From IMG/VR virus record IMGVR_UViG_3300047299_000127, positions 1 to 56,894 of that record: DNA of 56,894 nucleotides, one strand, 5' to 3'. The DNA comes from a virus (lineage: Duplodnaviria; Caudoviricetes). The notes beneath the pieces are model-generated. The model did not search any database and was not told the DNA's origin. It worked only from the letters and a program-made list of their open reading frames with translations. Every line of letters begins with the position of its first letter. The stretch's first letter is position 1. Below, piece after piece: positions 2,234 to 30,015 of this stretch. Position numbers and translations under genes: made by a program.

Positions 2234-2680
2234 TTAGGCGGCGCGGTAGAGCAGCGTCACGCCCACTTCACCAGCGGCCTTGGTGGCAGCGCCAGCAGTG
2301 AACTTCATGCCGACCTTGCGGTCGCCAGCGGCGGCGGCAGTGCGCGCCAGTTCCTTGCTCATCACAGCCACTTGGCCACCGGCCTGGCAGACGGTCAGGC
2401 CGGAGCCCCAGACCACTTCCAGATCGGTACCGGCTGCGTTGAGCAGGCCCACCGAAGCCACAATCGTGGGCGTGTTGTTGGTGTCCAGGTCGTCGCTGTC
2501 CACGTACAGAGCCACCGGCACGGAGCCAGCGGGCAAGATGCCCACAGCGCCGATGTCGTTGGCGTCCAGGTCAGCGGCCACCAGTTCCAGCGGGTAGCGC
2601 ACGGCGGCGACTTCGGAGCAGTCGCAGGTGATGGTTGGCTTGCGGCCATCCAGGTAGTCGTTCGATTTGGTGAAAGACAT
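2234..2680 (-). CDS. Putative capsid decoration/minor capsid protein
   Basis: 148 aa beta-rich protein directly downstream of the major capsid gene; AGGAG SD. Confidence 0.65.
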   Translation of the reverse strand: MSFTKSNDYLDGRKPTITCDCSEVAAVRYPLELVAADLDANDIGAVGILPAGSVPVALYVDSDDLDTNNTPTIVASVGLLNAAGTDLEVVWGSGLTVCQAGGQVAVMSKELARTAAAAGDRKVGMKFTAGAATKAAGEVGVTLLYRAA

Positions 2681-2715
2681 TTGTATTTCTCCTGTTCAGT
2701 TTGCGAATCGCCCGA

Positions 2716-3831
2716 TCAGCGGGCGGCTGCGGCGGTGTCCAGAGAGAACACACCGAAATCTTGGCTACCGGCCTCGGTATCGAAGCGAACCTTCTTGATA
2801 CCGAAGATGGCGGAGGTCGTGATGACCACCTTGTCGCCGTTGTCACGGGTTTCCTCGTGCCAGTCGTAGCGCAGGTTGGTGCCCGGCGAGCCGAAGGCGA
2901 CCACGGCAGCCTGGGAGCCCAGGAACAGACCGCGAGCGGCTTCCACGTTGCCGCCAGCGCCAGCGTTGGCGAAGCGGATGACGTTGCGGTGGCTGTGCAG
3001 GATCACGCCGCGATACATGCCCAGCGAGCCCTTGAACAGCGGCGAGTTGCGGCCTTCGGCGGCAGCGGCGGCCTTCTGGATGTCCATCCACTGGCCGGTC
3101 TGCGTGTTGGCGCGCAGATCGTCCTCTTGGAAGGTGTGCATCACGCACACGAAGGTCTCGTTGCCATCGATCTTGCAGGGCTGCAAAACGGGAATGTTGG
3201 TTGCGCCGCCGCCTTGGCTGTCAGCCTTGGTCTTGGCACGATCCACCAGGCGCAGATCGAACTTGTCGGCTGCGTCGATGTTGTTGAAGGCCGTGGCGTC
3301 ACCGCCGAACAGGTTGTGGTTGCTGTCCGGATTGGTCAAGCCGTTGCCTGCGCGACCTGCGTAGTTCAGGGGCAGCAAGAAGTTGGGGTTCACGCCGCGA
3401 GCGCCCGACAGGTAGATGAACATCAGTTCATCCATCAGGCGAGCCCACCAGCTGGACTGCTGGCGCTTGGCTTTTTCGCGCAGATCGTGCAGCGTGCGCT
3501 TGCGGGTCATGCGACCGCCAGTGTTCACACCGCAACGAGCCTGATCGATGTAGATCTGGTCGGTGTAGAACTTCTGGCCTTCTTCCTTGCCCTCCAGGAT
3601 GTCCTCGCCTTCGACGGGGGCCATCTTGAGTTCGGCAAGCAGGTCGTAGCTGATCTGTTCGCCAGCGTCCGATTCCAGATCGGTCAGGATCTGAACGGGC
3701 ACTTCGGCCTCAGCGCCACGCGCCATGAAGCGCTGGTTGAAATACGACTTCTGGGAAGTGTCGTGGGCAAGCAGACCAGCCCAGCGCTTGACTGCCTTGG
3801 CGTCATTGACGCCGATGATGGTACGAGCCAT
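2716..3831 (-). CDS. Major capsid protein, N4-gp56 family (DUF4043-like)
   Basis: 371 aa; VEGEDILEGKEE, IDQARCGV, DLREKAK..WW, DFGV motifs. Confidence 0.92.
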   Translation of the reverse strand: MARTIIGVNDAKAVKRWAGLLAHDTSQKSYFNQRFMARGAEAEVPVQILTDLESDAGEQISYDLLAELKMAPVEGEDILEGKEEGQKFYTDQIYIDQARCGVNTGGRMTRKRTLHDLREKAKRQQSSWWARLMDELMFIYLSGARGVNPNFLLPLNYAGRAGNGLTNPDSNHNLFGGDATAFNNIDAADKFDLRLVDRAKTKADSQGGGATNIPVLQPCKIDGNETFVCVMHTFQEDDLRANTQTGQWMDIQKAAAAAEGRNSPLFKGSLGMYRGVILHSHRNVIRFANAGAGGNVEAARGLFLGSQAAVVAFGSPGTNLRYDWHEETRDNGDKVVITTSAIFGIKKVRFDTEAGSQDFGVFSLDTAAAAR

Positions 3832-3906
3832 GGAAATACTCCTTCAAGGTTGAACTCAAAGGGAGCACTTCCTGCGCACCCGAATCACATGGCCGATAGG
3901 CCACGT
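3832..3906 (-). promoter_or_regulatory. Structured capsid 5' UTR: SD-sequestering stem and alternative GGA-loop (CsrA-type) hairpin
   Basis: GGAAGUGCUCC (3872-3862) pairs with GGAGUAUUUCC (3842-3832); alternative hairpin GCGC-AGGAA-GUGC (3877-3865). Confidence 0.65.
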
Positions 3907-3908
3907 TC

Positions 3909-4106
3909 TTACTCTGTCATGCTTGGCACGCCATCAGCGTCCTTGCATGGCTGCTTTTCGATCTTCACATCGCGAGGGGCAGTGACGCGCAACCGCGCCA
4001 ACTGCCCGCTCTTTTGCACAAGCTCGACCGTGACCACATCCGACAGCGCCAGACGCTCGCCTGGGCGCACGTCAATGATGAGACTCGACAGTCTGGTGTT
4101 TGCCAT
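3909..4106 (-). CDS. csrA: CsrA/RsmA-like RNA-binding protein
   Basis: LIIDVRPGERLALSDVVTVELVQKSGQLARLRVTAPRDVKI aligns by eye with the CsrA fold; TGATG coupling to the scaffold gene. Confidence 0.75.
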   Translation of the reverse strand: MANTRLSSLIIDVRPGERLALSDVVTVELVQKSGQLARLRVTAPRDVKIEKQPCKDADGVPSMTE

Positions 4107-5083
4107 CAGCGGCCTCGTGCCCACTTCTCCCGCTGTGCGGGCGTCATCTTGGCAATGGCCGATTCAAGGGCATCGCCTTCGAGCGCATCGATGTCGGCAA
4201 ACTCACCGGCCACATCGCCAGGACCATCGCCACCGGGCACCTGCGCCAGCGTGGCGGGCGCGGCAGCCACTGGGGGCTTGCGGGCATCGTTGGCGGCCTT
4301 GGCTGCGGCAGCGGGGTCAACCTTGGGCGCGGGCGCGGCATCGGCAACGCCGTGCAGTGCCTTCACGCGCTTGTGGGCCTCGGTCAAGAACCAATCCATG
4401 GGCTTGTCCGAGTTCTCTTCACGTGCGGCCAGCACGCGCACGAACTGATCGAGGTCGGCTTGCTTGGCCAGGTCCTTGCGGTAGTCGATGCCGCCATCTT
4501 CCTTGGCCGCCGACAGCACGAAGCGGTCAACCGTGTTCTTCCACTGGTTTTGCGCGGTCTGCTGGGTCATCTCCTGGGAGATCTCAGCCTTGATGCGGGC
4601 TTGGTTCAACTCGTCGCGGCGCGTGAGCAGTTCGCCACGCTGCAACTCGAACTCGTCAAAGTCGATCTCGCCGGACTTGAACTTGGCTTTGAGGTCGGCT
4701 TCCTGAGTGGCCAGTGTCTTGACCTGATCGTCGTAGTCGCTGGGCAGCTTAGCGTCATACGTGGCCGTGACCGCGCTGGGCGGCATGGCGGGCTCTTCGA
4801 CTGCGGCAGATGCGGCGGGGGCATCAGCGGGTGCCGGGTCGGTGTTGGGGGCGGCAGCGGCGGCTGGTGCTGCGGGTTTGTTCTCGGCGGCGGGCGGTGC
4901 GTCCTTGCCTTCTACGGGCGGGGCGCTGGTGTCGTCATCATCGCCATCATCATCACCGTCATCGTCTGCGATGCGGCGCATCGCTTCCAGTTCGGCCTCG
5001 CTGTGCTCGGGGTCGTTGATGGCCGCGAGTTCTTCGGGGGTCATGGTGTCCAGGATGTCCTGGTCCAGAGTTGCAGCACTCAT
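4106..5083 (-). CDS. Putative capsid scaffolding protein
   Basis: 325 aa; acidic low-complexity N-terminus, coiled coil, C-terminal MTPAQREKW helix; upstream of the capsid gene. Confidence 0.75.
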   Translation of the reverse strand: MSAATLDQDILDTMTPEELAAINDPEHSEAELEAMRRIADDDGDDDGDDDDTSAPPVEGKDAPPAAENKPAAPAAAAAPNTDPAPADAPAASAAVEEPAMPPSAVTATYDAKLPSDYDDQVKTLATQEADLKAKFKSGEIDFDEFELQRGELLTRRDELNQARIKAEISQEMTQQTAQNQWKNTVDRFVLSAAKEDGGIDYRKDLAKQADLDQFVRVLAAREENSDKPMDWFLTEAHKRVKALHGVADAAPAPKVDPAAAAKAANDARKPPVAAAPATLAQVPGGDGPGDVAGEFADIDALEGDALESAIAKMTPAQREKWARGR

Positions 5084-5111
5084 GCGCGCTTCCTTTCGGG
5101 GGGTTGAAAAA

Positions 5112-5300
5112 TCAGTCCTGGGTGCCGCCTGCCACCTTGGCGGTTTCCATCATTCGTTTCTTGGCCATGGCCTGCACCTTGGCGTAGCGCTTGGCGTCCT
5201 GCTTGATCGCCTCGGCTTCAATCATGGTGCGCAGGTCAGACTCGACGCGCCACTCTTCATCGGCCTTGATGGAGACTTCAGCGGTTTTGTTCTTGGCCAT
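5112..5300 (-). CDS. Small hypothetical head-morphogenesis protein (62 aa)
   Basis: AAGGA SD; EWRVESDLRTMIEAEAIK motif; follows the late-promoter motif. Confidence 0.7.
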   Translation of the reverse strand: MAKNKTAEVSIKADEEWRVESDLRTMIEAEAIKQDAKRYAKVQAMAKKRMMETAKVAGGTQD

Positions 5301-5340
5301 GGTGTTTCCTTGTGGGGTGGGTGTGTTGATCGGGCAAATC

Positions 5341-5355
5341 TGCCATGCTTGCCAC
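5341..5355 (-). promoter_or_regulatory. Late-operon motif GTGGCAAGCATGGCA
   Basis: Exact copies at 5341, 9429, 43600 and 46840; near copy at 3915. Confidence 0.65.
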
Positions 5356-5359
5356 GCCG

Positions 5360-5393
5360 AAAAAGAGCCCCGGCGCTTGCGGCAACCGGGGCT
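5360..5393 (-). terminator. Rho-independent terminator after the lysis cassette
   Basis: AGCCCCGG/CCGGGGCT stem followed by CTTTTT on the minus strand. Confidence 0.65.
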
Positions 5394-5425
5394 AAGGGCG
5401 GCTCGCGCCACCTTGGAGACAACTG

Positions 5426-5920
5426 CTATCGGTCCTCATTCACTGCGCGCTCGGCGGCTTGGTATCGGGCTTGGCACTGGGCAAGCTCGACTCGGATGAG
5501 ATCGGCTCGGGCAGCTTCCCCGACAAGAAAAGCAGCATCCGGTCGGTAAAGCTGGACTCCAGTACAGCCTGAGGCACTGGGTCCAGGCTGGGCAGGCGCG
5601 GCGGCTTGACTGGGGGCATCGGCTGGGCGGTCGGGGCGCTGGCGCAGGCTGTCAAGAGCAGCATCACGCTGGCGAGTAAGGCGAGCAATCTCACGGTGTT
5701 TCTCCTGTCGGTCTTGGTCTGCCTGGCGCTGAAGGGTTTGTTCACGGGCACGGGCGCGGGCTTGTTCGTCGGCATGGGCCCTGGCGGTCTTGGCGCGCTC
5801 CTGGTCCCACATCTGAGCCACCTCGGCGCGCCCATCGCTGCGGCCCACCACGTAGCACTTCCAGGCACCGGCCAGCAATACCAGGATGGCCACGATCACG
5901 GCAACGATGCGCACGCTCAT
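5426..5920 (-). CDS. Rz: Inner-membrane spanin (Rz-like)
   Basis: N-terminal TM helix (IVAVIVAILVLLAGAW), coiled-coil periplasmic domain, two Cys near the C-terminus; follows the endolysin. Confidence 0.85.
   Translation of the reverse strand: MSVRIVAVIVAILVLLAGAWKCYVVGRSDGRAEVAQMWDQERAKTARAHADEQARARAREQTLQRQADQDRQEKHREIARLTRQRDAALDSLRQRPDRPADAPSQAAAPAQPGPSASGCTGVQLYRPDAAFLVGEAARADLIRVELAQCQARYQAAERAVNEDR
5440..5694 (-). CDS. Rz1: Outer-membrane lipoprotein spanin (Rz1-like), embedded in Rz
   Basis: AGGAG SD, GTG start, signal peptide with lipobox LTAC, Pro-rich mature part; lies entirely within Rz in another frame. Confidence 0.85.
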   Translation of the reverse strand: MRLLALLASVMLLLTACASAPTAQPMPPVKPPRLPSLDPVPQAVLESSFTDRMLLFLSGKLPEPISSESSLPSAKPDTKPPSAQ

Positions 5921-6390
5921 GGCCGGGCACCCTCGCCCATGCACTGGGCGTATTCGGACTGGCGGCGGATGGTCAGGCCGCGCAGCGGCTGGCCCTTGAA
6001 CCTGTCCCATCGCAAGATCTGGCGGCAGGCGTCCTCGTACTGCTCCTGGTTGAGCAGGCGCACCAGCGTGGAGGCACAAAAGGCGGATGAGCCGATGTTG
6101 TAGGCCAGGCTCACATAGGCGTCATATTCGTGCTGGTGCAAGGGCACGCGCACACACTGACGGATCGCGCCCTCGAACTTCTGCACATCGGACAGCTTGC
6201 GTGCCAGGGCTTTGGGTGGCGTGGTTCGGTCGCCCAGCTTCACGCCATCGGTCGTGCCAAAGCCAAGCGTGGGCACATCGCCCGGTACCGGGATGATGGC
6301 CTGATCGGTGTAGCCCTCCTTGAGCGCAATGCCCACCAGGGCGGCGGCGCTCAAGACCAGGCTGGCAATGCTGGCGCGCCGGATGCTCAT
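5917..6390 (-). CDS. SAR endolysin (GH24 lysozyme)
   Basis: Weakly hydrophobic Ala/Ser/Gly N-terminal SAR segment then EG...GDVPTLGFGTT; YNIG and GLTIRR.SE motifs. Confidence 0.92.
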   Translation of the reverse strand: MSIRRASIASLVLSAAALVGIALKEGYTDQAIIPVPGDVPTLGFGTTDGVKLGDRTTPPKALARKLSDVQKFEGAIRQCVRVPLHQHEYDAYVSLAYNIGSSAFCASTLVRLLNQEQYEDACRQILRWDRFKGQPLRGLTIRRQSEYAQCMGEGARP

Positions 6391-6611
6391 TCGTAGAGCC
6401 CCATGCGCCGGTCATGCTCGGCCTGCTGGCGCTTGTCCTCTTTGTGCCGGTAGTACCAATTCACGAAGAAACCGCCAACAGCCACAAGCAGGCCAATCAG
6501 GATGGTGAATTCACTCGATAGCACCCAGCCCATGACGCTGGTGCCTGCGCCCGTGTACGTCGCCTTGCTGGCGGCGGCGCTGATCGTGGCTTCAAGGGTT
6601 TGTTCCTTCAT
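6387..6611 (-). CDS. Holin
   Basis: 74 aa; TM segment followed by NWYYR and a charged C-terminus; directly upstream of the endolysin. Confidence 0.85.
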   Translation of the reverse strand: MKEQTLEATISAAASKATYTGAGTSVMGWVLSSEFTILIGLLVAVGGFFVNWYYRHKEDKRQQAEHDRRMGLYE

Positions 6612-8973
6612 TGGTCTTTCCTGCTTGATTGAGTTCATTGCGTGCCTCGATGGAGCGCATCACGGTGTCGAGTCGGTCTTGGAGGGCTTGGATCTTCTTG
6701 TCGCTGGTCGCCTGGATCTCGGCCACGCGCAGCCGGGTGTCCGCATCGATGCGGGCCACTTCCAGCTTGGTGTCGGCTTCCTTGTTCATGCGAATGGTCT
6801 GGTTGGCCAGATCCGCCTGGGCCTTGCGCAGTGCCTCGGTCATGCGGTCGATCTCGTCGTTGGCCTGCTGGCGCACCTGCATGAGCGCGCCCTGCACGTC
6901 CTCGCCAGGCTGGCCACCACCGGCAGCGGCTTGGGCTTCGGTTTCGAGCTTGGCGGCGCGGGCGTTGAGTTCGCGGATCTTGGCGGCCTGCTCTTCCAGT
7001 GCCTGCATGGCCTGCTGGCGCTGCATCTGCAAGGCCTCGGCCTGCTGGGCGGCTTGCTCCTGTGCCGCCTGCTCTTCCTCGGGCGTCATTGGCTTGTTCG
7101 GATCGCGCTCGCCTGTGAGCTTGCGGATCTGGTCGGCCACCTCGTCCTTGTTGGGCAGGTCCGAAAACTCCATGGCGATGGTCATCAGGCGCAGAGCCAC
7201 CTCGGGCGGCAGTCGCGTGGCCATCTGGTTCAGGGCCTCGAACATCACCTGGCGCAAGGTGCCCGAGTAGTCCTGCTCAGACACCACAAAATCGGCAGCG
7301 CTGGCCGTGATGTCGTTGATGAAGCGCACGGACCCATCGGCTTGCACCTCGGGCACGTTGATCTTGACCCACTCCAGCGCGCCCTTGGAGCCGGTCAGGC
7401 GGACCACTTTTTCCTGGGTGTAGAACTGCTCGGTCAGGGACAACTGCTTTTCGCCCTGCACCTGAGTGGCAAAGCGCAGGTTGTCGAAAGGCTCGGTCGT
7501 GACCACGGAGCCCTGCAACTGGCGGGCTTTGATGGCCTCGCCTGAGACCGCATTGGTCTGGCGGCCTAAGTTTTCCTGGCTCACACCGGCTGACTTCTGG
7601 ATGCTCTGGGCATCCATCGCCATCATCTGGATCTGGCCGGTGGCGGCATCGGTGTCGCGGCGGATCTCGATGGACTTGCCCTGCTTCTTGACGATCAGGC
7701 CATCGGGACGGTCGGCCTCGTCGCGCAGCACGTCCATGTCATCGACCGCGCCCTCGTCGGCAATGACCTGGTTGGTGTTGAGCATCCACAGGGCTTTGGA
7801 TGCGCGCTTGTTCAGATCCTGCTGAATGTCGCGCACGCGCCGGATGATCCCGTAAGGCAGGCGATCACGGCCACGGCGGTAGCACCAGACCGGCGTGAGG
7901 CTAAAACGGTTGTGCCGGAACATCGAGGGACCCATGCCAAGCATGTGGCTCTCGGTGAACACGGCGATGTGCACGCGCATCATCACCTTGTCCACGATGA
8001 AGCTGCCCGACTTGGCCACTGCATCGGCCATGGCCTGATCGCCCTGGTTGAGGATCAGGCCCTTGAGCGGACCATCGGCCACGATCTTGACGGTGGCGGG
8101 CTTTCGGTACTGGCACTCGATCAGCTTGACCCTGCGGCGCTTGGCGTCCGCCAGTTGGCCAACACCGCTGGCGTACAGGGTGCCGGTCTTGACGTTGTTC
8201 ATGTCGGCGGGCGAGTACCAGGTGTCCTCTTCCCATCCGTCCGTGGTGTAGTGGGCGGCCTCTTCCACGGCTGAGGCAATGACGTGCCTGCGCCCTGGGA
8301 ACATCATCAGAGCCACGTCCTCGTCCACCCAGCGCCAGCGAAACAGGTAGCGCGAGTCCGACAGGTCCAGCTCGTAGCCGGATGAATCCCAAATGACGTT
8401 GCGCCAGTCCTCGTACTTGCAGTACAGGATGTCTTGGGTCGGGTCATCGCGCACCCCGTCATCTATCCAGCCCACACCGGACTTCACGGCATCGGCAAAG
8501 GCGCGGGAGCGCACGAAGGGCACACGGTTGATGTCGCTGACGTACTTCAAGACCTTGGTCTTGGTGTCGGCCATCTCCACATCGTCCTCGGTGCGCGGCA
8601 GCACGCGCCAATCCACACGGGTGCGGCGCTCGGTACCGATCACCCAGTCCACCATGGGCGCGACCTCGTTGTAGACCAGCGGCATCTGGCCGCGATCACG
8701 CAGCACCTGGGCATCGTCCGGGTCCCACTGGAGGTTGTCGTAGAAGTCGGCATCCATCGCCATTTCCAGGCGGTTGAGCGACTGCTTTTCCTTCTCGTGA
8801 TAGAACCACTCCAGCAGCTTGCGAAGCTCGGAGCGGGCCTCGTCGCTGTCCAGCGGGTTGCCCTTGGGGTCCATGACCTCGCGGCCTTCGCTGGCCATGG
8901 TCTGCGCCTGGCGGTTGAAGTAGTCCTCACCAGGTGCGGTGTTGCGCTTGACGCGCACATCGAGATCAGCCAT
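6592..8973 (-). CDS. Portal protein (P22-like, with C-terminal barrel/coiled coil)
   Basis: 793 aa; DFYDNLQW, RGQMPLVYN, YGIIRRVRDIQQDLNKR, SGEAIKARQ.QG motifs. Confidence 0.92.
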   Translation of the reverse strand: MADLDVRVKRNTAPGEDYFNRQAQTMASEGREVMDPKGNPLDSDEARSELRKLLEWFYHEKEKQSLNRLEMAMDADFYDNLQWDPDDAQVLRDRGQMPLVYNEVAPMVDWVIGTERRTRVDWRVLPRTEDDVEMADTKTKVLKYVSDINRVPFVRSRAFADAVKSGVGWIDDGVRDDPTQDILYCKYEDWRNVIWDSSGYELDLSDSRYLFRWRWVDEDVALMMFPGRRHVIASAVEEAAHYTTDGWEEDTWYSPADMNNVKTGTLYASGVGQLADAKRRRVKLIECQYRKPATVKIVADGPLKGLILNQGDQAMADAVAKSGSFIVDKVMMRVHIAVFTESHMLGMGPSMFRHNRFSLTPVWCYRRGRDRLPYGIIRRVRDIQQDLNKRASKALWMLNTNQVIADEGAVDDMDVLRDEADRPDGLIVKKQGKSIEIRRDTDAATGQIQMMAMDAQSIQKSAGVSQENLGRQTNAVSGEAIKARQLQGSVVTTEPFDNLRFATQVQGEKQLSLTEQFYTQEKVVRLTGSKGALEWVKINVPEVQADGSVRFINDITASAADFVVSEQDYSGTLRQVMFEALNQMATRLPPEVALRLMTIAMEFSDLPNKDEVADQIRKLTGERDPNKPMTPEEEQAAQEQAAQQAEALQMQRQQAMQALEEQAAKIRELNARAAKLETEAQAAAGGGQPGEDVQGALMQVRQQANDEIDRMTEALRKAQADLANQTIRMNKEADTKLEVARIDADTRLRVAEIQATSDKKIQALQDRLDTVMRSIEARNELNQAGKTNEGTNP

Positions 8974-9397
8974 AGGTCACGCCCTCTTTTTCGACACGGA
9001 TGTCCTCGCCAGCCAGGGCCTGGCCATCTGCGCGCAACTCCATGTGGCCAAAGCTCGCCCGGTGGTACTCCTTGGGCGGCGATGAGGGCATGCGGATCAG
9101 GTCGGGCAGTGCGTCAATGACGATGCCCGCGATGCGGCGGCAGTTGGTGGGGGTTGGCTCGATGCCCAGGACTTCGCAGGCCTTCATGGACTTGCGCACG
9201 ACCTCGGGCACGTTGCGGGAGTTCTCGTCATCCCAGGTGAATGCCGCCGACTCCATGACGATGAACCACGGCGCACCGGCCCGAAAGGTCGGCACCATCA
9301 CCATGGCCCGCTCGTCGTTGACCCAGGTGAAGATGGTTGTGATGTCGCCGTGCTGGCGCGTCAGGTGCGCTTTGCGCGTATCGATGGATGCAGACAT
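8966..9397 (-). CDS. Hypothetical protein upstream of the portal
   Basis: 143 aa ORF coupled to the portal; DLIRMP motif; follows the late motif. Confidence 0.75.
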   Translation of the reverse strand: MSASIDTRKAHLTRQHGDITTIFTWVNDERAMVMVPTFRAGAPWFIVMESAAFTWDDENSRNVPEVVRKSMKACEVLGIEPTPTNCRRIAGIVIDALPDLIRMPSSPPKEYHRASFGHMELRADGQALAGEDIRVEKEGVTYG

Positions 9398-9428
9398 TTC
9401 GGCCCCAGAATGAACTGGGGTCCAAAAA

Positions 9429-9443
9429 TGCCATGCTTGCCAC
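9429..9443 (-). promoter_or_regulatory. Late-operon motif GTGGCAAGCATGGCA
   Basis: Exact copy about 30 nt upstream of the portal operon. Confidence 0.65.
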
Positions 9444-9511
9444 GGATCAGAGGCATGTCAGGCCTCGGTCAGGCGATCTCCGCATAAGACAATCTCGAAA
9501 AAGGAGTAAGC

Positions 9512-17422: not shown

Positions 17423-17455
17423 TGGACACATCAGGAACTTTCAAAGGAGTCAGGA

Positions 17456-17716
17456 ATGGAAAAAGTGCCCTACCTCTACCGCCCCATCGCCATGTACGGC
17501 GGCAAGGTGCTCAAGTGCTGCGGTATCGCCACCGAAATCAGCCGCGCCATTGTTTCGGACCAATCGGTCGGCCTGGGACTTGTGAAAGACGATGCCCTCA
17601 TGACCAACGGCATCGTGGTCGAGACCAGCGAATACAAAGGCGACCGGATCTATGCGGAAAGCCTGGAGCCTTTCATTGCAGGAAGCCTGCAACCTTTCGT
17701 GGAGCAAGCAGCATGA
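17456..17716 (+). CDS. Hypothetical early protein
   Basis: AAGGAG SD; first gene after the early promoter. Confidence 0.75.
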   Translation: MEKVPYLYRPIAMYGGKVLKCCGIATEISRAIVSDQSVGLGLVKDDALMTNGIVVETSEYKGDRIYAESLEPFIAGSLQPFVEQAA

Positions 17717-22162: not shown

Positions 22163-22199
22163 CGAGGCGTGTCAGGAACTTAAACAGGAGTCAGGAACC

Positions 22200-22466
22200 A
22201 TGAACCAAGCCCAGATCGAAGCAGTGGCAAATGCCAATGCCTTCCTCAACAACGCAGGCCTGCCGCTTATCGAAGAGCGTGTCTTGCAGGTCCAAGTCAA
22301 GAACGTGTACGGCAAGGCCACCGTCTACCCGGCCAACGAAACCGCCGAGTTCTTCGCGGCGATTGCTGGCACCAAAACCCTCGCGCCCGTTGTCCTGGCC
22401 TATGCCAGACGGTTGGGCTTCGACATCAAGCAAGTCGAGGCCTACCAGATTCCGGGGGTGCAGTGA
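22200..22466 (+). CDS. Hypothetical phage protein
   Basis: AGGAG SD; VKNVYG...YPANETA..FA.IAGTKTL motif. Confidence 0.75.
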   Translation: MNQAQIEAVANANAFLNNAGLPLIEERVLQVQVKNVYGKATVYPANETAEFFAAIAGTKTLAPVVLAYARRLGFDIKQVEAYQIPGVQ

Positions 22467-29892: not shown

Positions 29893-30015
29893 CGGAAGTC
29901 CTCTACAAGACAAGGGCGTGCATCATTCGGACACGATCTGCACGAGATAACGAGATTCTATCAAGCGCGAAGATCAATTAGGTGGACGGGCGCGCAGTGC
30001 GCCCGCCCTCCCCCG

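What the first reader, a model, noticed from the sequence alone, without database searches (positions are those of the whole stretch)
3832..4106. CsrA-type translational switch on the major capsid mRNA, next to the phage csrA-like gene
Seen: in the capsid 5' UTR, GGAAGUGCUCC pairs over 11 bp (two G-U) with GGAGUAUUUCC, burying the SD up to the AUG, and the stem extends through UUUGAG/CUUGAA. The anti-SD strand overlaps a mutually exclusive hairpin, GCGC-AGGAA-GUGC, with GGA in the loop. A separate 8-bp hairpin (3887-3906) caps the 5' side. Known: CsrA/RsmA binds GGA-loop hairpins and usually represses. Inference: here binding would free the SD and activate capsid translation. Because csrA is translationally coupled to the scaffold gene, this could tie capsid synthesis to scaffold supply.
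Basis: partly seen in the sequence, partly recalled or inferred. Interest (0 to 1): 0.8.

Follow-up and report, generated by a model that had tools for sequence, protein, structure and literature searches.

The report
Phage CsrA switch on capsid mRNA
The capsid-protein message of this phage starts with a conserved RNA segment that can fold in two competing ways, one hiding the ribosome landing site and one showing a textbook docking loop for the small CsrA-like RNA-binding protein encoded just upstream, so the phage probably controls its own capsid protein synthesis.

Summary

**What is there.** In the 77-nt leader of the major capsid gene (minus strand, 3832-3908), a long hairpin P2 (3832-3872) buries the Shine-Dalgarno sequence up to the AUG. 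It shares its 5' strand with a mutually exclusive short hairpin P1 (3861-3881), GGG-U-GCGC/AGGAA/GUGC-U-CCC.

**Conservation.**
- In 50 distinct related leaders, both folds covary (0 of 500 shuffles each).
- The GCGC/GUGC stem is almost invariant.
- 43 of 50 loops carry GGA, in the CsrB-type CAGGA(N)G form.

**The neighbouring protein.** The 65-aa protein has a CsrA/RsmE fold and models as an intertwined dimer. Its start overlaps the stop of the scaffold-like gene in 32 of 45 junctions.

**Link between gene and element.** The RNA element goes with the regulated gene's start, and the csrA-like gene goes with the scaffold-like gene. In Sinorhizobium phage PBC5 they lie about 30 kb apart.

**Open points.** Binding is not shown, and the direction of control is inferred. 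I favour activation, in which the protein locks P1 and frees the SD, as CsrA does at E. coli ymdA. Repression of the glgC/hag type remains a real rival.

**Status.** Published papers treat the phage csrA as a moron of unknown role. This scan has noted the same theme before on other DNA (e1-3822178, e1-5849030, e1-6220759, e1-5867588).

The parts
4106..5083 (-). Scaffold-like gene (325 aa), lying between the portal and csrA-like genes. Its TGA overlaps the csrA-like ATG.
   Evidence: ORF list. No Pfam family. PHROG 8246, unknown function, E 1e-45. The 'scaffold' label rests on position only. The stop/start overlap is seen in the sequence and is conserved: 32 of 45 distinct junctions overlap, 12 have gaps of 0-15 nt and 1 has a gap of 17 nt.
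3909..4106 (-). csrA-like gene (65 aa plus stop).
   Evidence: PF02599 E 7e-6, 26.3 bits against a 27-bit cut-off. PHROG 8397 E 2e-12. AF2 model pLDDT 85. Ranks 1-15 of the PDB Foldseek list are all CsrA/RsmA/RsmE chains, TM 0.48-0.85. The family profile against the PDB matches RsmE 2jpp at E 2.9e-8.
3887..3906 (-). 8-bp hairpin (ACGUGGCC-UAUC-GGCCAUGU) immediately after the csrA-like stop codon. It has no U-tract.
   Evidence: Folds: -13.5 kcal/mol, z -4.08. It is conserved with a compensatory change (GGCC/GGCC to GGUC/GACC) in close relatives only. Across 46 distinct relatives, 33 have some fold of -6 kcal/mol or better in this stretch, but the median z is -0.67.
3861..3881 (-). P1: the anti-anti-SD / anti-SD hairpin GGG-U-GCGC [AGGAA] GUGC-U-CCC. 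This is the candidate operator of the CsrA-like protein.
   Evidence: Fold at -11.2 kcal/mol. Covariation on 50 leaders: 82% of cells paired, score 0.253 against 0.135 +/- 0.016, 0 of 500 shuffles. It is the only significant match of the P1 covariance model in the genome: 33.4 bits, E 3e-6.
3869..3873 (-). P1 loop AGGAA. With its closing pair it reads CAGGAAG.
   Evidence: Sequence. 43 of 50 distinct leaders have GGA here. The CsrB repeat CAGGA(U/A/C)G and the ANGGAN loop of RsmE targets are as described in passages of PMC7652899.
3832..3872 (-). P2: the long SD-burying hairpin. It has an 11-bp outer stem, a bulged C and a 6-bp inner stem, with loop UUCAAC. Its 5' strand contains the P1 loop and the P1 3' strand.
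   Evidence: MFE. -20.6 kcal/mol on its own. Covariation score 0.279 against 0.202 +/- 0.010, 0 of 500 shuffles. On the model-fitted alignment of 52 leaders, 0.287 against 0.200, 0 of 500.
3839..3844 (-). Shine-Dalgarno AAGGAG of the capsid gene. It holds a second GGA, which starts 30 nt after the loop GGA.
   Evidence: Sequence. It is fully paired in the MFE.
2716..3831 (-). Major capsid protein gene (371 aa).
   Evidence: PF13252 Phage_capsid_3, E 4e-62.
5076..5087 (-). Weak candidate second site: GCGC-AUGA-GUGC, with the start codon of the scaffold-like gene in the loop.
   Evidence: Sequence. The same 12-mer sits on this start codon in 8 of 43 distinct relatives. However, the P1 model gives it only 9.7 bits, E 3.3, and the region does not fold better than shuffles (z +0.63). 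The AUGAGUGC part is also constrained by the Met-Ser-Ala coding.

Best explanation
The capsid mRNA leader is a two-state RNA switch with a protein operator.

**State OFF (P2).** The strand AGGAAGUGCUCC pairs with the SD region and spacer, and the ribosome-binding site is closed.

**State ON (P1).** The same strand's GUGCUCCC part pairs instead with the upstream GGGUGCGC. This forms a short hairpin that shows AGGAA in its loop and leaves the SD and AUG free.

**Proposed mechanism.**
1. The phage's own CsrA-like dimer is made from the same late message. Its gene start overlaps the stop codon of the scaffold-like gene.
2. The dimer binds the P1 loop and stem as P1 emerges from the polymerase, before the SD strand is transcribed.
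3. This locks P1 and turns capsid translation on. Capsid protein is then made only after, and in proportion to, the upstream scaffold-like/CsrA-like pair.

**Shown here.**
- Both structures and their covariation.
- The near-invariance of the GCGC/GUGC stem and the GGA loop.
- The CsrA fold of the protein.
- The co-occurrence of gene and element.

**Inferred.**
- That this protein binds P1.
- That binding favours P1 over P2.
- The direction of control (activation).
- The link to scaffold supply.
For: **1. Structures in the window.** Searches give them; the RBS is unusually closed.

**2. Both folds covary in 50 distinct leaders.** Their capsid proteins are 42-99% identical to the window's.
- P1.
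- P2.
- Cognate strands pair better than non-cognate ones. P1 is -10.1 against -8.6 kcal/mol and P2 is -13.0 against -11.7, with 0 of 5000 permutations each. This test used 45 leaders; L001-L004 and L061 were dropped for their different architecture.

**3. The two states are close in energy.** With the 5' strand free, P1 minus P2 has a median of +1.6 kcal/mol and a range of -6.3 to +9.9. That fits a switch.

**4. The SD is paired by default.** In 44 of 50 leaders, at most 1 of the 4 SD bases is unpaired in the MFE.

**5. The P1 sequence is more conserved than a stem needs.** GCGC/GUGC never or almost never varies, with G-U at the second pair in 49 of 50. GGA is in the loop in 43 of 50. This matches the CsrB repeat CAGGA(U/A/C)G (PMC7652899, passages).

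**6. The loop GGA is base-paired in P2.** Protein binding and P2 would therefore exclude each other. Pairing of GGA lowers RsmE binding (PMC7652899, passage).

**7. The protein looks like CsrA.**
- CsrA fold.
- A basic residue, K51, sits at the RsmE R44 position.
- Dimer model: ipSAE 0.45, best of 3 controls 0.00. That mark was reached by 20 of 30 proteins solved as pairs of one chain and by 1 of 23 solved as single chains.
- The three runs agree in at least 86% of contacts, and partner pLDDT is at least 68.
- This pass may reflect the model's memory of solved CsrA dimers.

**8. Gene and element co-occur but are separable.**
- 62 of 68 held records with a csrA-like gene have the capsid gene next, with the element.
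- In GP4 (513-nt gap with an ORF) and L055 (748-nt gap), the element stays at the capsid start.
- In PBC5, a diverged csrA-like gene stays after the scaffold-like gene at 34 kb. The capsid gene at 4 kb keeps GCGC-AUGA-GUGC and a start-burying stem.
- In L065 and L066, the element precedes a different gene (PHROG 644) right after a csrA-like gene.
- Phage 933W has a distant capsid homologue, no csrA-like gene and no element.

**9. There is a precedent.** CsrA activates ymdA by destabilising an SD-sequestering hairpin (PMC7492729, abstract).
Against: - No binding or expression data exist for any member.
- The SD carries its own GGA 30 nt from the loop GGA, which is the geometry of dual-site CsrA repression (glgC; PMC7652899).
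- 7 of 50 leaders, plus Pavtok, LASTA and PBC5, have AAGA, AUGA, AGCA or AGUA loops without GGA. Canonical CsrA requires GGA.
- The Pfam score is just below the curated cut-off.
- R44 is replaced by K, and the C-terminal helix of CsrA is replaced by a short tail.
- With the first codons included, the free-energy minimum favours the closed state by about 10 kcal/mol in the window: -25.0 against -15.4. A bound protein would have to act kinetically or contribute much energy.
- In phage JC1 the CsrA-like protein was found in purified virions, on one peptide only (PMC9144972, passages). That hints at a role or partner in the particle.
- The shuffle controls do not correct for the relatedness of the sequences.
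Confidence: 0.45

Rival explanations
1. The components are the same but the sign is opposite. One CsrA-like dimer bridges the P1-loop GGA and the SD GGA and blocks the ribosome, as CsrA does at glgC and as B. subtilis CsrA does at the flagellin (hag) leader. Repression would be relieved when the protein is drawn off by a partner such as the scaffold-like protein, capsid protein or procapsids. Free capsid protein would then be kept in step with assembly.
For: - Two GGA motifs lie 30 nt apart, one in a hairpin loop and one in the SD.
- Repression is the usual CsrA mode, with a high-affinity hairpin site plus an SD site at glgC (PMC7652899, passages).
- The family has a conserved short C-terminal tail motif V-(P/A)-(S/R)-M that could dock a partner.
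- Phage JC1 shows possible virion association, on one peptide (PMC9144972).
- The hag/FliW analogy is recalled from memory and comes from no call.
Against: - The SD is already buried by a conserved stem of -20.6 kcal/mol. A repressor would therefore add to a default OFF state for the phage's most needed protein, with no visible way to turn it on.
- In the clade with AAGAC or AUGAC loops (Itty13, Parlo, LASTA, Pavtok, L061), I saw by eye no second copy of the loop motif at the SD.
Confidence: 0.25
2. The element is RNA only. P2 is a stabilising or processing structure, for instance an RNase III site whose cleavage frees the SD. Alternatively the P1/P2 pair is a purely kinetic folding timer. The CsrA-like protein would act elsewhere, on host messages (the published 'moron' view) or on other phage leaders.
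For: - P2 with its outer extension is a long imperfect duplex of about 25 bp.
- Papers treat the gene as a moron of unknown role (PMC9144972; PMC8310193).
- Two early leaders in this genome carry several CAGGAA motifs.
- The non-GGA loops in 7 of 50 leaders fit poorly with canonical CsrA.
Against: - This reading does not explain why the GCGC/GUGC stem and the loop A-GGA are nearly invariant while the rest of the leader drifts.
- It does not explain why the element is found with a csrA-like gene even when the two are 30 kb apart or when the downstream gene differs.
- Genome records of hosts on the betaproteobacterial side show no CsrA of their own beyond the phage copy. This rests on 3 MAGs of unknown completeness, so it is weak. 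PMC7366521 (passage) reports that Burkholderia cepacia and cenocepacia lack chromosomal csrA.
Confidence: 0.2
3. The conserved 12-13-nt box works at the DNA level, as a promoter or as the operator of a DNA-binding protein in front of the capsid gene. On this reading the RNA folds are incidental.
For: - The box is a short and nearly invariant sequence at a fixed distance, 38-61 nt before the capsid start.
- No sigma-70-like promoter was found anywhere in 2500-9500, so late transcription signals in this region are unknown.
Against: - The stems depend on G-U pairs that exist only in the sense-strand RNA: G-U at the second P1 pair in 49 of 50 leaders, and two G-U positions in P2 in 26 of 50 each.
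- The SD-side strand covaries with the box and its flank.
Confidence: 0.05

Closest known systems
CsrA activation of ymdA translation in E. coli (Renda et al. 2020, PMC7492729; abstract read)
   Same: An SD-sequestering hairpin forms in the leader. A CsrA site lies within the 5' strand of that hairpin. Binding is incompatible with the closed fold.
   Different: Here the open state has its own conserved alternative hairpin (P1) that presents the GGA loop. The regulator is phage-encoded, sits in the same operon, and appears to have a single dedicated operator in the genome. Nothing has been tested.
CsrA/RsmE repression at glgC, hcnA and similar leaders, and the CsrB decoy repeats (review PMC7652899, passages; PDB 2jpp)
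   Same: A GGA sits in the loop of a short hairpin, here reading CAGGAAG like the CsrB repeats. A second GGA lies in the SD, within bridging distance. The protein has the same fold and the same kind of dimer.
   Different: The hairpin is built from the anti-SD strand, so stabilising it would open the SD rather than cover it. Some relatives have AAGA or AUGA loops that canonical CsrA should not bind.
RsmA at the psl leader of P. aeruginosa (review PMC7652899, passage)
   Same: The protein binds a loop and thereby stabilises one of two RNA folds that decide SD access.
   Different: At psl the stabilised hairpin is the SD:anti-SD pair itself, so binding represses. Here the hairpin that shows the GGA is the competitor of the SD:anti-SD pair.
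Phage-encoded CsrA homologues listed by Sobrero and Valverde 2020 (PMC7366521, passages), and the 'moron' CsrA of Bcep22-like phage JC1 (PMC9144972, passages)
   Same: It is the same gene family in the same position, between the scaffold-like and capsid genes.
   Different: Those papers propose no target. The word 'capsid' does not occur in PMC7366521. The JC1 paper calls the gene a moron that may benefit the host. The present reading makes it a morphogenesis regulator with a cis target.
Translational activators and repressors of other phages (Mu Com at mom; MS2 coat protein at the replicase hairpin). These are recalled from memory and come from no call.
   Same: A small phage protein binds a hairpin at or near a ribosome-binding site and so changes translation of a late gene.
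   Different: The protein folds are unrelated. In this case the protein belongs to the bacterial CsrA family.

Membership tests
CsrA/RsmA protein family (PF02599) | Sequence match to the family model above the curated cut-off. | tested here: not met
   26.3 bits against a cut-off of 27, E 7e-6. A six-frame search of the genome gives 25.5 bits. The phage-specific PHROG 8397 'CsrA-like regulator' matches at E 2e-12. The miss is by less than one bit.
CsrA/RsmA protein family (PF02599) | The five-stranded CsrA fold. | tested here: met
   AF2 model with pLDDT 85. Foldseek against the PDB: ranks 1-15 as listed are all CsrA/RsmA/RsmE chains, with rmsd 0.7-1.5 A for all but one NMR model (2.8 A) and TM 0.48-0.85. 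The family profile against PDB sequences gives 7 hits, all CsrA/RsmE, best E 2.9e-8.
CsrA/RsmA protein family (PF02599) | An intertwined homodimer, with beta1 of one chain lying beside beta4 of the other. | tested here: met
   Score 0.45, best of 3 controls 0.00. The mark was reached by 20 of 30 proteins solved as pairs of one chain and by 1 of 23 solved as single chains. The runs agree in at least 86% of contacts and partner pLDDT is at least 68. Residues 8-14 touch residues 37-42 of the other copy. CsrA dimers are solved structures, so the pass may reflect likeness only.
CsrA/RsmA protein family (PF02599) | The key RNA-binding residues (R44 and the beta1 residues). | tested here: inconclusive
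   The R44 position holds K51 in the window and K or R in most relatives. Beta1 reads LIIDVRPGE against LILTRRVGE in CsrA. The importance of R44 is recalled from memory and comes from no call.
CsrA/RsmA protein family (PF02599) | Binds GGA-containing RNA. | not testable with these tools
   No RNA-protein modelling or assay was available.
CsrA-type mRNA operator | A GGA lies in the loop of a short hairpin (ANGGAN / CAGGA(U/A/C)G). | tested here: met
   The window reads GCGC-AGGAA-GUGC, with CAGGAAG across the closing pair. GGA is in the loop in 43 of 50 leaders. The definitions come from PMC7652899.
CsrA-type mRNA operator | A second site lies at or near the SD, within bridging distance. | tested here: met
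   The AAGGAG GGA starts 30 nt after the loop GGA. This is a sequence-level observation only. In the closed fold both GGAs are base-paired.
ymdA-type activation switch | An SD-sequestering hairpin with a regulator site inside its 5' strand. | tested here: met
   The hairpin is conserved with covariation.
ymdA-type activation switch | The regulator increases 30S binding and translation. | not testable with these tools
   This needs toeprinting and reporter assays.
Intrinsic terminator (considered for the 8-bp hairpin and for P1) | A GC-rich stem followed by a U-tract. | tested here: not met
   The 8-bp hairpin is followed by GAUUCGGG. The scan flags P1 with tail CCUUUGAGUU, but it found 7 sites in total against 5.5 +/- 2.8 expected, and the tail is not U-rich in relatives.
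Any Rfam family | A covariance-model match at or above the gathering score. | tested here: not met
   The best match in 3600-4300 scores 17.5 bits against a gathering score of 70, E 0.18.

The most novel reading that the evidence does not exclude
A phage-autonomous Csr circuit for head assembly.
- The CsrA-like protein is a dedicated translational activator of the major capsid protein.
- It acts by hairpin capture: it locks P1 as the leader is transcribed.
- Because its translation is coupled to that of the scaffold-like protein, capsid subunits are made only once their assembly partner is present.
- Protein and operator have co-evolved. Loops changed from GGA to AAGA or AUGA mainly in phages of hosts that have their own CsrA/Rsm: Serratia, Klebsiella, Erwinia and P. 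aeruginosa.
- That change would insulate the switch from the host regulator.
- The exceptions are Skulduggery and PBC5, and only 8 named phages bear on the point.
Probability: 0.35. Interest if true: 0.8.

Novelty: new variant of a known kind. Interest (0 to 1): 0.64.

Why it matters
Phage genes annotated 'CsrA-like regulator' sit between the scaffold-like and capsid genes in many phage genera infecting Ralstonia, Burkholderia, Pseudomonas, Serratia, Klebsiella and Erwinia, and in many uncultured freshwater and wastewater phages.

Their role is unknown, and the papers I read treat them as host-directed morons.

A conserved, covarying two-state leader on the capsid message, with a textbook CsrA docking loop, gives the family a concrete cis target. 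It also offers a simple and testable mechanism for ordering head-protein synthesis after transcription.

If the activation reading holds:
- It would be a natural, compact and orthogonal protein-RNA translational ON switch.
- It would be a second, independent case, after ymdA, of CsrA acting as an activator by RNA remodelling.

Tried and rejected
**A third pairing.** The MFE of the window pairs the P1 5' strand with capsid codons 2-4 (P3). Across relatives, 75.8% of these cells are paired, but there is no covariation beyond shuffles (107 of 500). The GCGC also stays where the codons differ. I therefore do not count P3 as a conserved helix.

**More copies of P1 in the genome.**
- The pattern search found 24 matches with up to 2 mismatches against 16 expected, and only one exact match.
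- The P1 covariance model found 40 matches at E up to 10, but only the capsid leader is significant.
- The scaffold-start copy scores 9.7 bits (E 3.3), so it is kept only as a weak lead.

**Terminator and promoter readings.** Both were rejected.

**Rfam.** There is no match.

**RNA evidence from public runs.**
- All 17 runs listed hold only small shares of the query words (0.32 or less) and are kept as contigs.
- One contig of an RNA library (X4, record 14, 3704-4016, 8 differing letters) spans the csrA-like 3' part, the leader and the capsid 5' part.
- X7 record 20 (3735-3931) spans the capsid start and leader, but has only 23 letters in the csrA-like gene.
- Contigs cannot show a single transcript, RNA ends or strand, and DNA may be present in such libraries. 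This settles nothing.

**Host CsrA.** The Pfam model found only the phage copy in 1 of 3 MAGs that hold related phage contigs. Completeness is unknown, and the model missed the phage copies in the other two, so this is weak.

**Ranking all genes by RBS closure.** Greedy ORF calling failed because the GC-rich genome gives long spurious antisense ORFs. I replaced it with named starts and random positions.

**Literature.** Searches found no paper that links a phage CsrA-like protein to capsid translation. Subscription journals are mostly not held. Gill et al. 2011 on Bcep22 could not be read. Supplementary tables of PMC7366521 were not opened.

**Protein-loop co-variation.** L030 (AGCA loop) and L031 (AGUA loop) have divergent beta5 regions. 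With so few independent cases I draw no conclusion.
Full report
**What the window is.** The window is a complete 56,894-bp virus record with direct terminal repeats. The genes around the finding lie on the minus strand:
- a P22-type portal gene, 6595-8973;
- a 325-aa scaffold-like gene, 4106-5083;
- a 65-aa csrA-like gene, 3909-4106;
- the major capsid gene, 2716-3831 (PF13252, E 4e-62).

The scaffold label rests on position only. The protein has no Pfam family and matches PHROG 8246 of unknown function.

**Check of the observation.**
- The 77-nt leader (3832-3908) folds into an 8-bp hairpin (3887-3906) and a long hairpin P2 (3832-3872).
- P2 has an 11-bp outer stem that pairs GGAAGUGCUCC with GGAGUAUUUCC, right up to the AUG.
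- P2 also has a 6-bp inner stem, UUUGAG/CUUGAA.
- The whole fold is far more stable than shuffled sequence: -41.2 kcal/mol, z -4.56, 0 of 200 shuffles.
- The competing hairpin P1 (3861-3881) is GGG-U-GCGC, loop AGGAA, GUGC-U-CCC, at -11.2 kcal/mol.
- P1 and P2 share the bases 3861-3872, so they cannot coexist.
- Opening the capsid ribosome-binding site costs 17.1 kcal/mol. The scaffold-like start costs 5.6 and the portal start 7.6. Only 2.8% of 600 random positions in this GC-rich genome are as closed.

**The protein.**
- Pfam CsrA is missed by under one bit: 26.3 against 27.
- PHROG 8397 'CsrA-like regulator' matches at E 2e-12.
- A model built on 20 relatives has pLDDT 85.
- Ranks 1-15 of the PDB Foldseek list are all CsrA, RsmA or RsmE chains.
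- The family profile finds RsmE (2jpp) at E 2.9e-8 and places K51 at the R44 position.
- Two copies model as the intertwined CsrA-type dimer. The score is 0.45, best of 3 controls 0.00. The mark was reached by 20 of 30 proteins solved as pairs of one chain and by 1 of 23 solved as single chains. The runs agree in at least 86% of contacts, and partner pLDDT is at least 68.
- CsrA dimers are solved structures, so that pass may only reflect likeness.

**Relatives collected.** Searches with the small protein gave:
- 28 viral-contig loci of 83 candidate stretches;
- 3 genome-collection loci of 599;
- 32 metagenome loci of 103.

I also fetched named phages: GP4, Skulduggery, Itty13 and Parlo, and later Pavtok, JC1 and LASTA.

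Of 68 records held, 62 have the csrA-like gene followed by the capsid gene. The six others are L035, L046, L062, L065, L066 and L067. The 62 give 50 distinct leaders. Their capsid proteins are 42-99% identical to the window's.

**Covariation.** On the MAFFT alignment of the 50 leaders:
- **P1:** 82% of cells are paired. The covariation score is 0.253 against 0.135 +/- 0.016 in shuffles, with 0 of 500 as high. Clear double changes occur in the outer pairs: pair 29-45 is GC 40, CG 7, AU 1, and pair 30-44 is AU 20, CG 5, UG 5, GC 2.
- **P1 inner pairs:** the three pairs closest to the loop (columns 32-42, 33-41, 34-40) essentially never vary. The second from the loop is G-U in 49 of 50.
- **P2:** 74% of cells are paired, score 0.279 against 0.202 +/- 0.010, 0 of 500.
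- **P2 on the model-fitted alignment of 52 leaders:** score 0.287 against 0.200, 0 of 500. That alignment leans towards the structure by construction.

RNAalifold on the MAFFT alignment returns only the P1 core, because the variable inner stem of P2 is poorly aligned.

An alignment-free test agrees. The strands of one leader pair better with each other than with the strands of other leaders, for both P1 and P2, with 0 of 5000 permutations each. This used 45 leaders; five with a different architecture were left out.

These controls do not remove the effect of shared ancestry.

A third pairing in the window's MFE, between the P1 5' strand and codons 2-4, shows no covariation (107 of 500).

**Two-state behaviour.**
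- With the upstream strand kept free, the P1 state and the P2 state differ by a median of 1.6 kcal/mol, range -6.3 to +9.9.
- In the unconstrained MFE, 44 of 50 leaders have at most one of four SD bases unpaired.
- In a gammaproteobacterial-phage clade (Skulduggery, Itty13, Parlo, LASTA, Pavtok, L061) the details differ. The shared strand GUGCGG pairs either with CUGCGC (P1) or with a downstream CCGCA.
- In that clade the MFE also forms an outer helix around the SD in Itty13, Parlo, Pavtok and LASTA.
- The logic is the same: P1 competes with the closed fold.

**The operator-like loop.** Loops among the 50 leaders are:

| Loop | Count |
|---|---|
| AGGAA | 20 |
| AGGA | 17 |
| AGGAC | 3 |
| AGGAU | 2 |
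| UGGAU | 1 |
| AUGAC | 2 |
| AAGAC | 2 |
| AAGA | 1 |
| AGCA | 1 |
| AGUA | 1 |

So 43 of 50 carry GGA.
- With the closing C-G pair, the window reads CAGGAAG. This is the repeat CAGGA(U/A/C)G of the CsrB decoy RNA.
- It is also close to the ANGGAN loops bound by RsmE (review PMC7652899, passages).
- The same review states that pairing of the GGA lowers binding. In P2 the loop GGA pairs with the spacer UUUCC before the AUG.
- That spacer follows the loop when the loop changes, read by eye: GGAC with GUCC in L017, GUAGUGC with GCACUAC in L031, and GCAGU with AUUGC in L030.
- The spacer is free to adapt, so the conservation of GGA itself needs an outside reason. A binding protein is the simplest one.

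**Gene and element travel together but are separable.**
- The leader model finds exactly one match per record, always at the capsid start, in 52 of 61 sources. These include Pavtok, JC1 and LASTA, which were not used to build it.
- The nine sources without a match at E 0.01 are L035, L046, L061, L062, L065, L066, L067, PBC5 and 933W.
- In GP4 (513-nt gap with an extra ORF) and L055 (748-nt gap), the element stays next to the capsid gene.
- In PBC5, a diverged csrA-like gene (gp26; profile E 2.9e-4) remains after the portal and scaffold-like genes near 34 kb. The capsid gene near 4 kb keeps GCGC-AUGA-GUGC and a 14-bp stem over its start codon.
- In L065 and L066, a csrA-like gene (PHROG 8397, E 1e-20 for L065) is followed by the same kind of box and an SD-pairing strand. 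The gene behind it is a different one, PHROG 644 in L065.
- Phage 933W has a distant capsid homologue, no csrA-like match and no element.
- In the window itself, only the capsid leader matches the P1 model significantly: 33.4 bits, E 3e-6, with the next best at 17.2 bits.

**Coupling to the upstream gene.** The csrA-like start overlaps the stop of the scaffold-like gene in 32 of 45 distinct junctions. It lies 0-15 nt after it in 12 junctions and 17 nt after it in 1. No sigma-70-like promoter is seen between the portal and capsid genes.

**How it most likely works.**
The protein captures P1 as it is transcribed and keeps the anti-SD strand busy, so the SD stays open.
- The reasons are the strongly closed default state of a gene that needs very high output, the placement of the GGA loop on the competitor of the closed fold, and the ymdA precedent (PMC7492729, abstract).
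- I give this reading 0.45.
- Repression by bridging the loop GGA and the SD GGA, 30 nt apart, is the usual CsrA mode. It would fit an assembly-feedback loop, perhaps through the conserved C-terminal tail motif. I give it 0.25.
- An RNA-only role for the leader, with the protein acting elsewhere, gets 0.20.
- A DNA-level role for the box gets 0.05.

**Comparison with what is known.**
- Phage csrA genes have been catalogued (PMC7366521, passages). That paper does not contain the word 'capsid'.
- For the Bcep22-like phage JC1, the gene is called a moron of unknown benefit. It was detected in virions on one peptide (PMC9144972, passages).
- My five literature searches found no paper proposing a capsid-leader target.
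- This scan's own notebook holds earlier, unchecked notes of the same theme on other DNA.
- One of them led me to the GCGC-AUGA-GUGC box on the start codon of the scaffold-like gene at 5076-5087.
- In this window that box is not statistically supported.

**Verdict.** The structure is real and conserved. The link to the CsrA-like protein is strong by association but untested. The sign of regulation is open. I class it as a new variant of a known kind of control, of good but not exceptional interest.

Noticed in passing
window 5076-5087 (minus strand): GCGC-AUGA-GUGC has the same stem as P1 and carries the start codon of the scaffold-like gene in its loop. The same 12-mer sits there in 8 of 43 distinct relatives, and 7 more read GCGCAUGAGUACGC by eye. 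The P1 model does not score it significantly (9.7 bits, E 3.3). If real, it could let the protein repress the scaffold-like gene and its own coupled gene.
   Followed up: partly
window 17430-17460 and 22172-22200 (plus strand): Two early-gene leaders each carry two CAGGAAC-type motifs plus an AGGAG SD. They lack the GCGC/GUGC stem and are not found by the P1 model. They could be looser CsrA-type repression sites.
   Followed up: partly
window 3912-3935 (minus strand); C-terminal tail of the CsrA-like protein: The tail, which is otherwise variable, ends in a conserved short motif V-(P/A)-(S/R)-M in most relatives. Canonical CsrA has a helix here. The motif might dock a partner. Its coding RNA (GCCAAGCAUGGC in several relatives) also forms a small hairpin.
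   Followed up: no
L062 2198-2227: About 1.5 kb downstream of a distant csrA-like gene lies GGCGCGC-AGGA-GUGCGCC, followed directly by AUG. Here the AGGAG of the loop would itself be the SD. This arrangement would make a bound protein a repressor.
   Followed up: no
named phages: L003, L004, L069, L072 compared with L001 and L071: Loops without GGA (AAGAC, AUGAC) occur in phages of Pseudomonas aeruginosa, Serratia, Erwinia and Klebsiella. I recall these hosts as having their own CsrA/Rsm; no call shows it. GGA loops occur in phages of Ralstonia and Burkholderia; the Burkholderia hosts cepacia and cenocepacia lack chromosomal csrA according to PMC7366521. The exceptions are Skulduggery (UGGAU, Pseudomonas fluorescens) and PBC5 (AUGA, Sinorhizobium). 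This might insulate the switch from host CsrA. Only 8 named phages bear on the point.
   Followed up: partly
window 29987-30006 (plus strand): The second-best match of the P1 model (17.2 bits, E 0.041) is a loopless GC-rich palindrome, CGGGCGCGCAGUGCGCCCGC. It is probably unrelated.
   Followed up: no
window 8966-9397 (minus strand): The start of the 143-aa ORF upstream of the portal gene is even more closed than the capsid start, with an opening cost of 23.1 kcal/mol. The start codon may be mis-assigned, or the gene may be translationally coupled.
   Followed up: no
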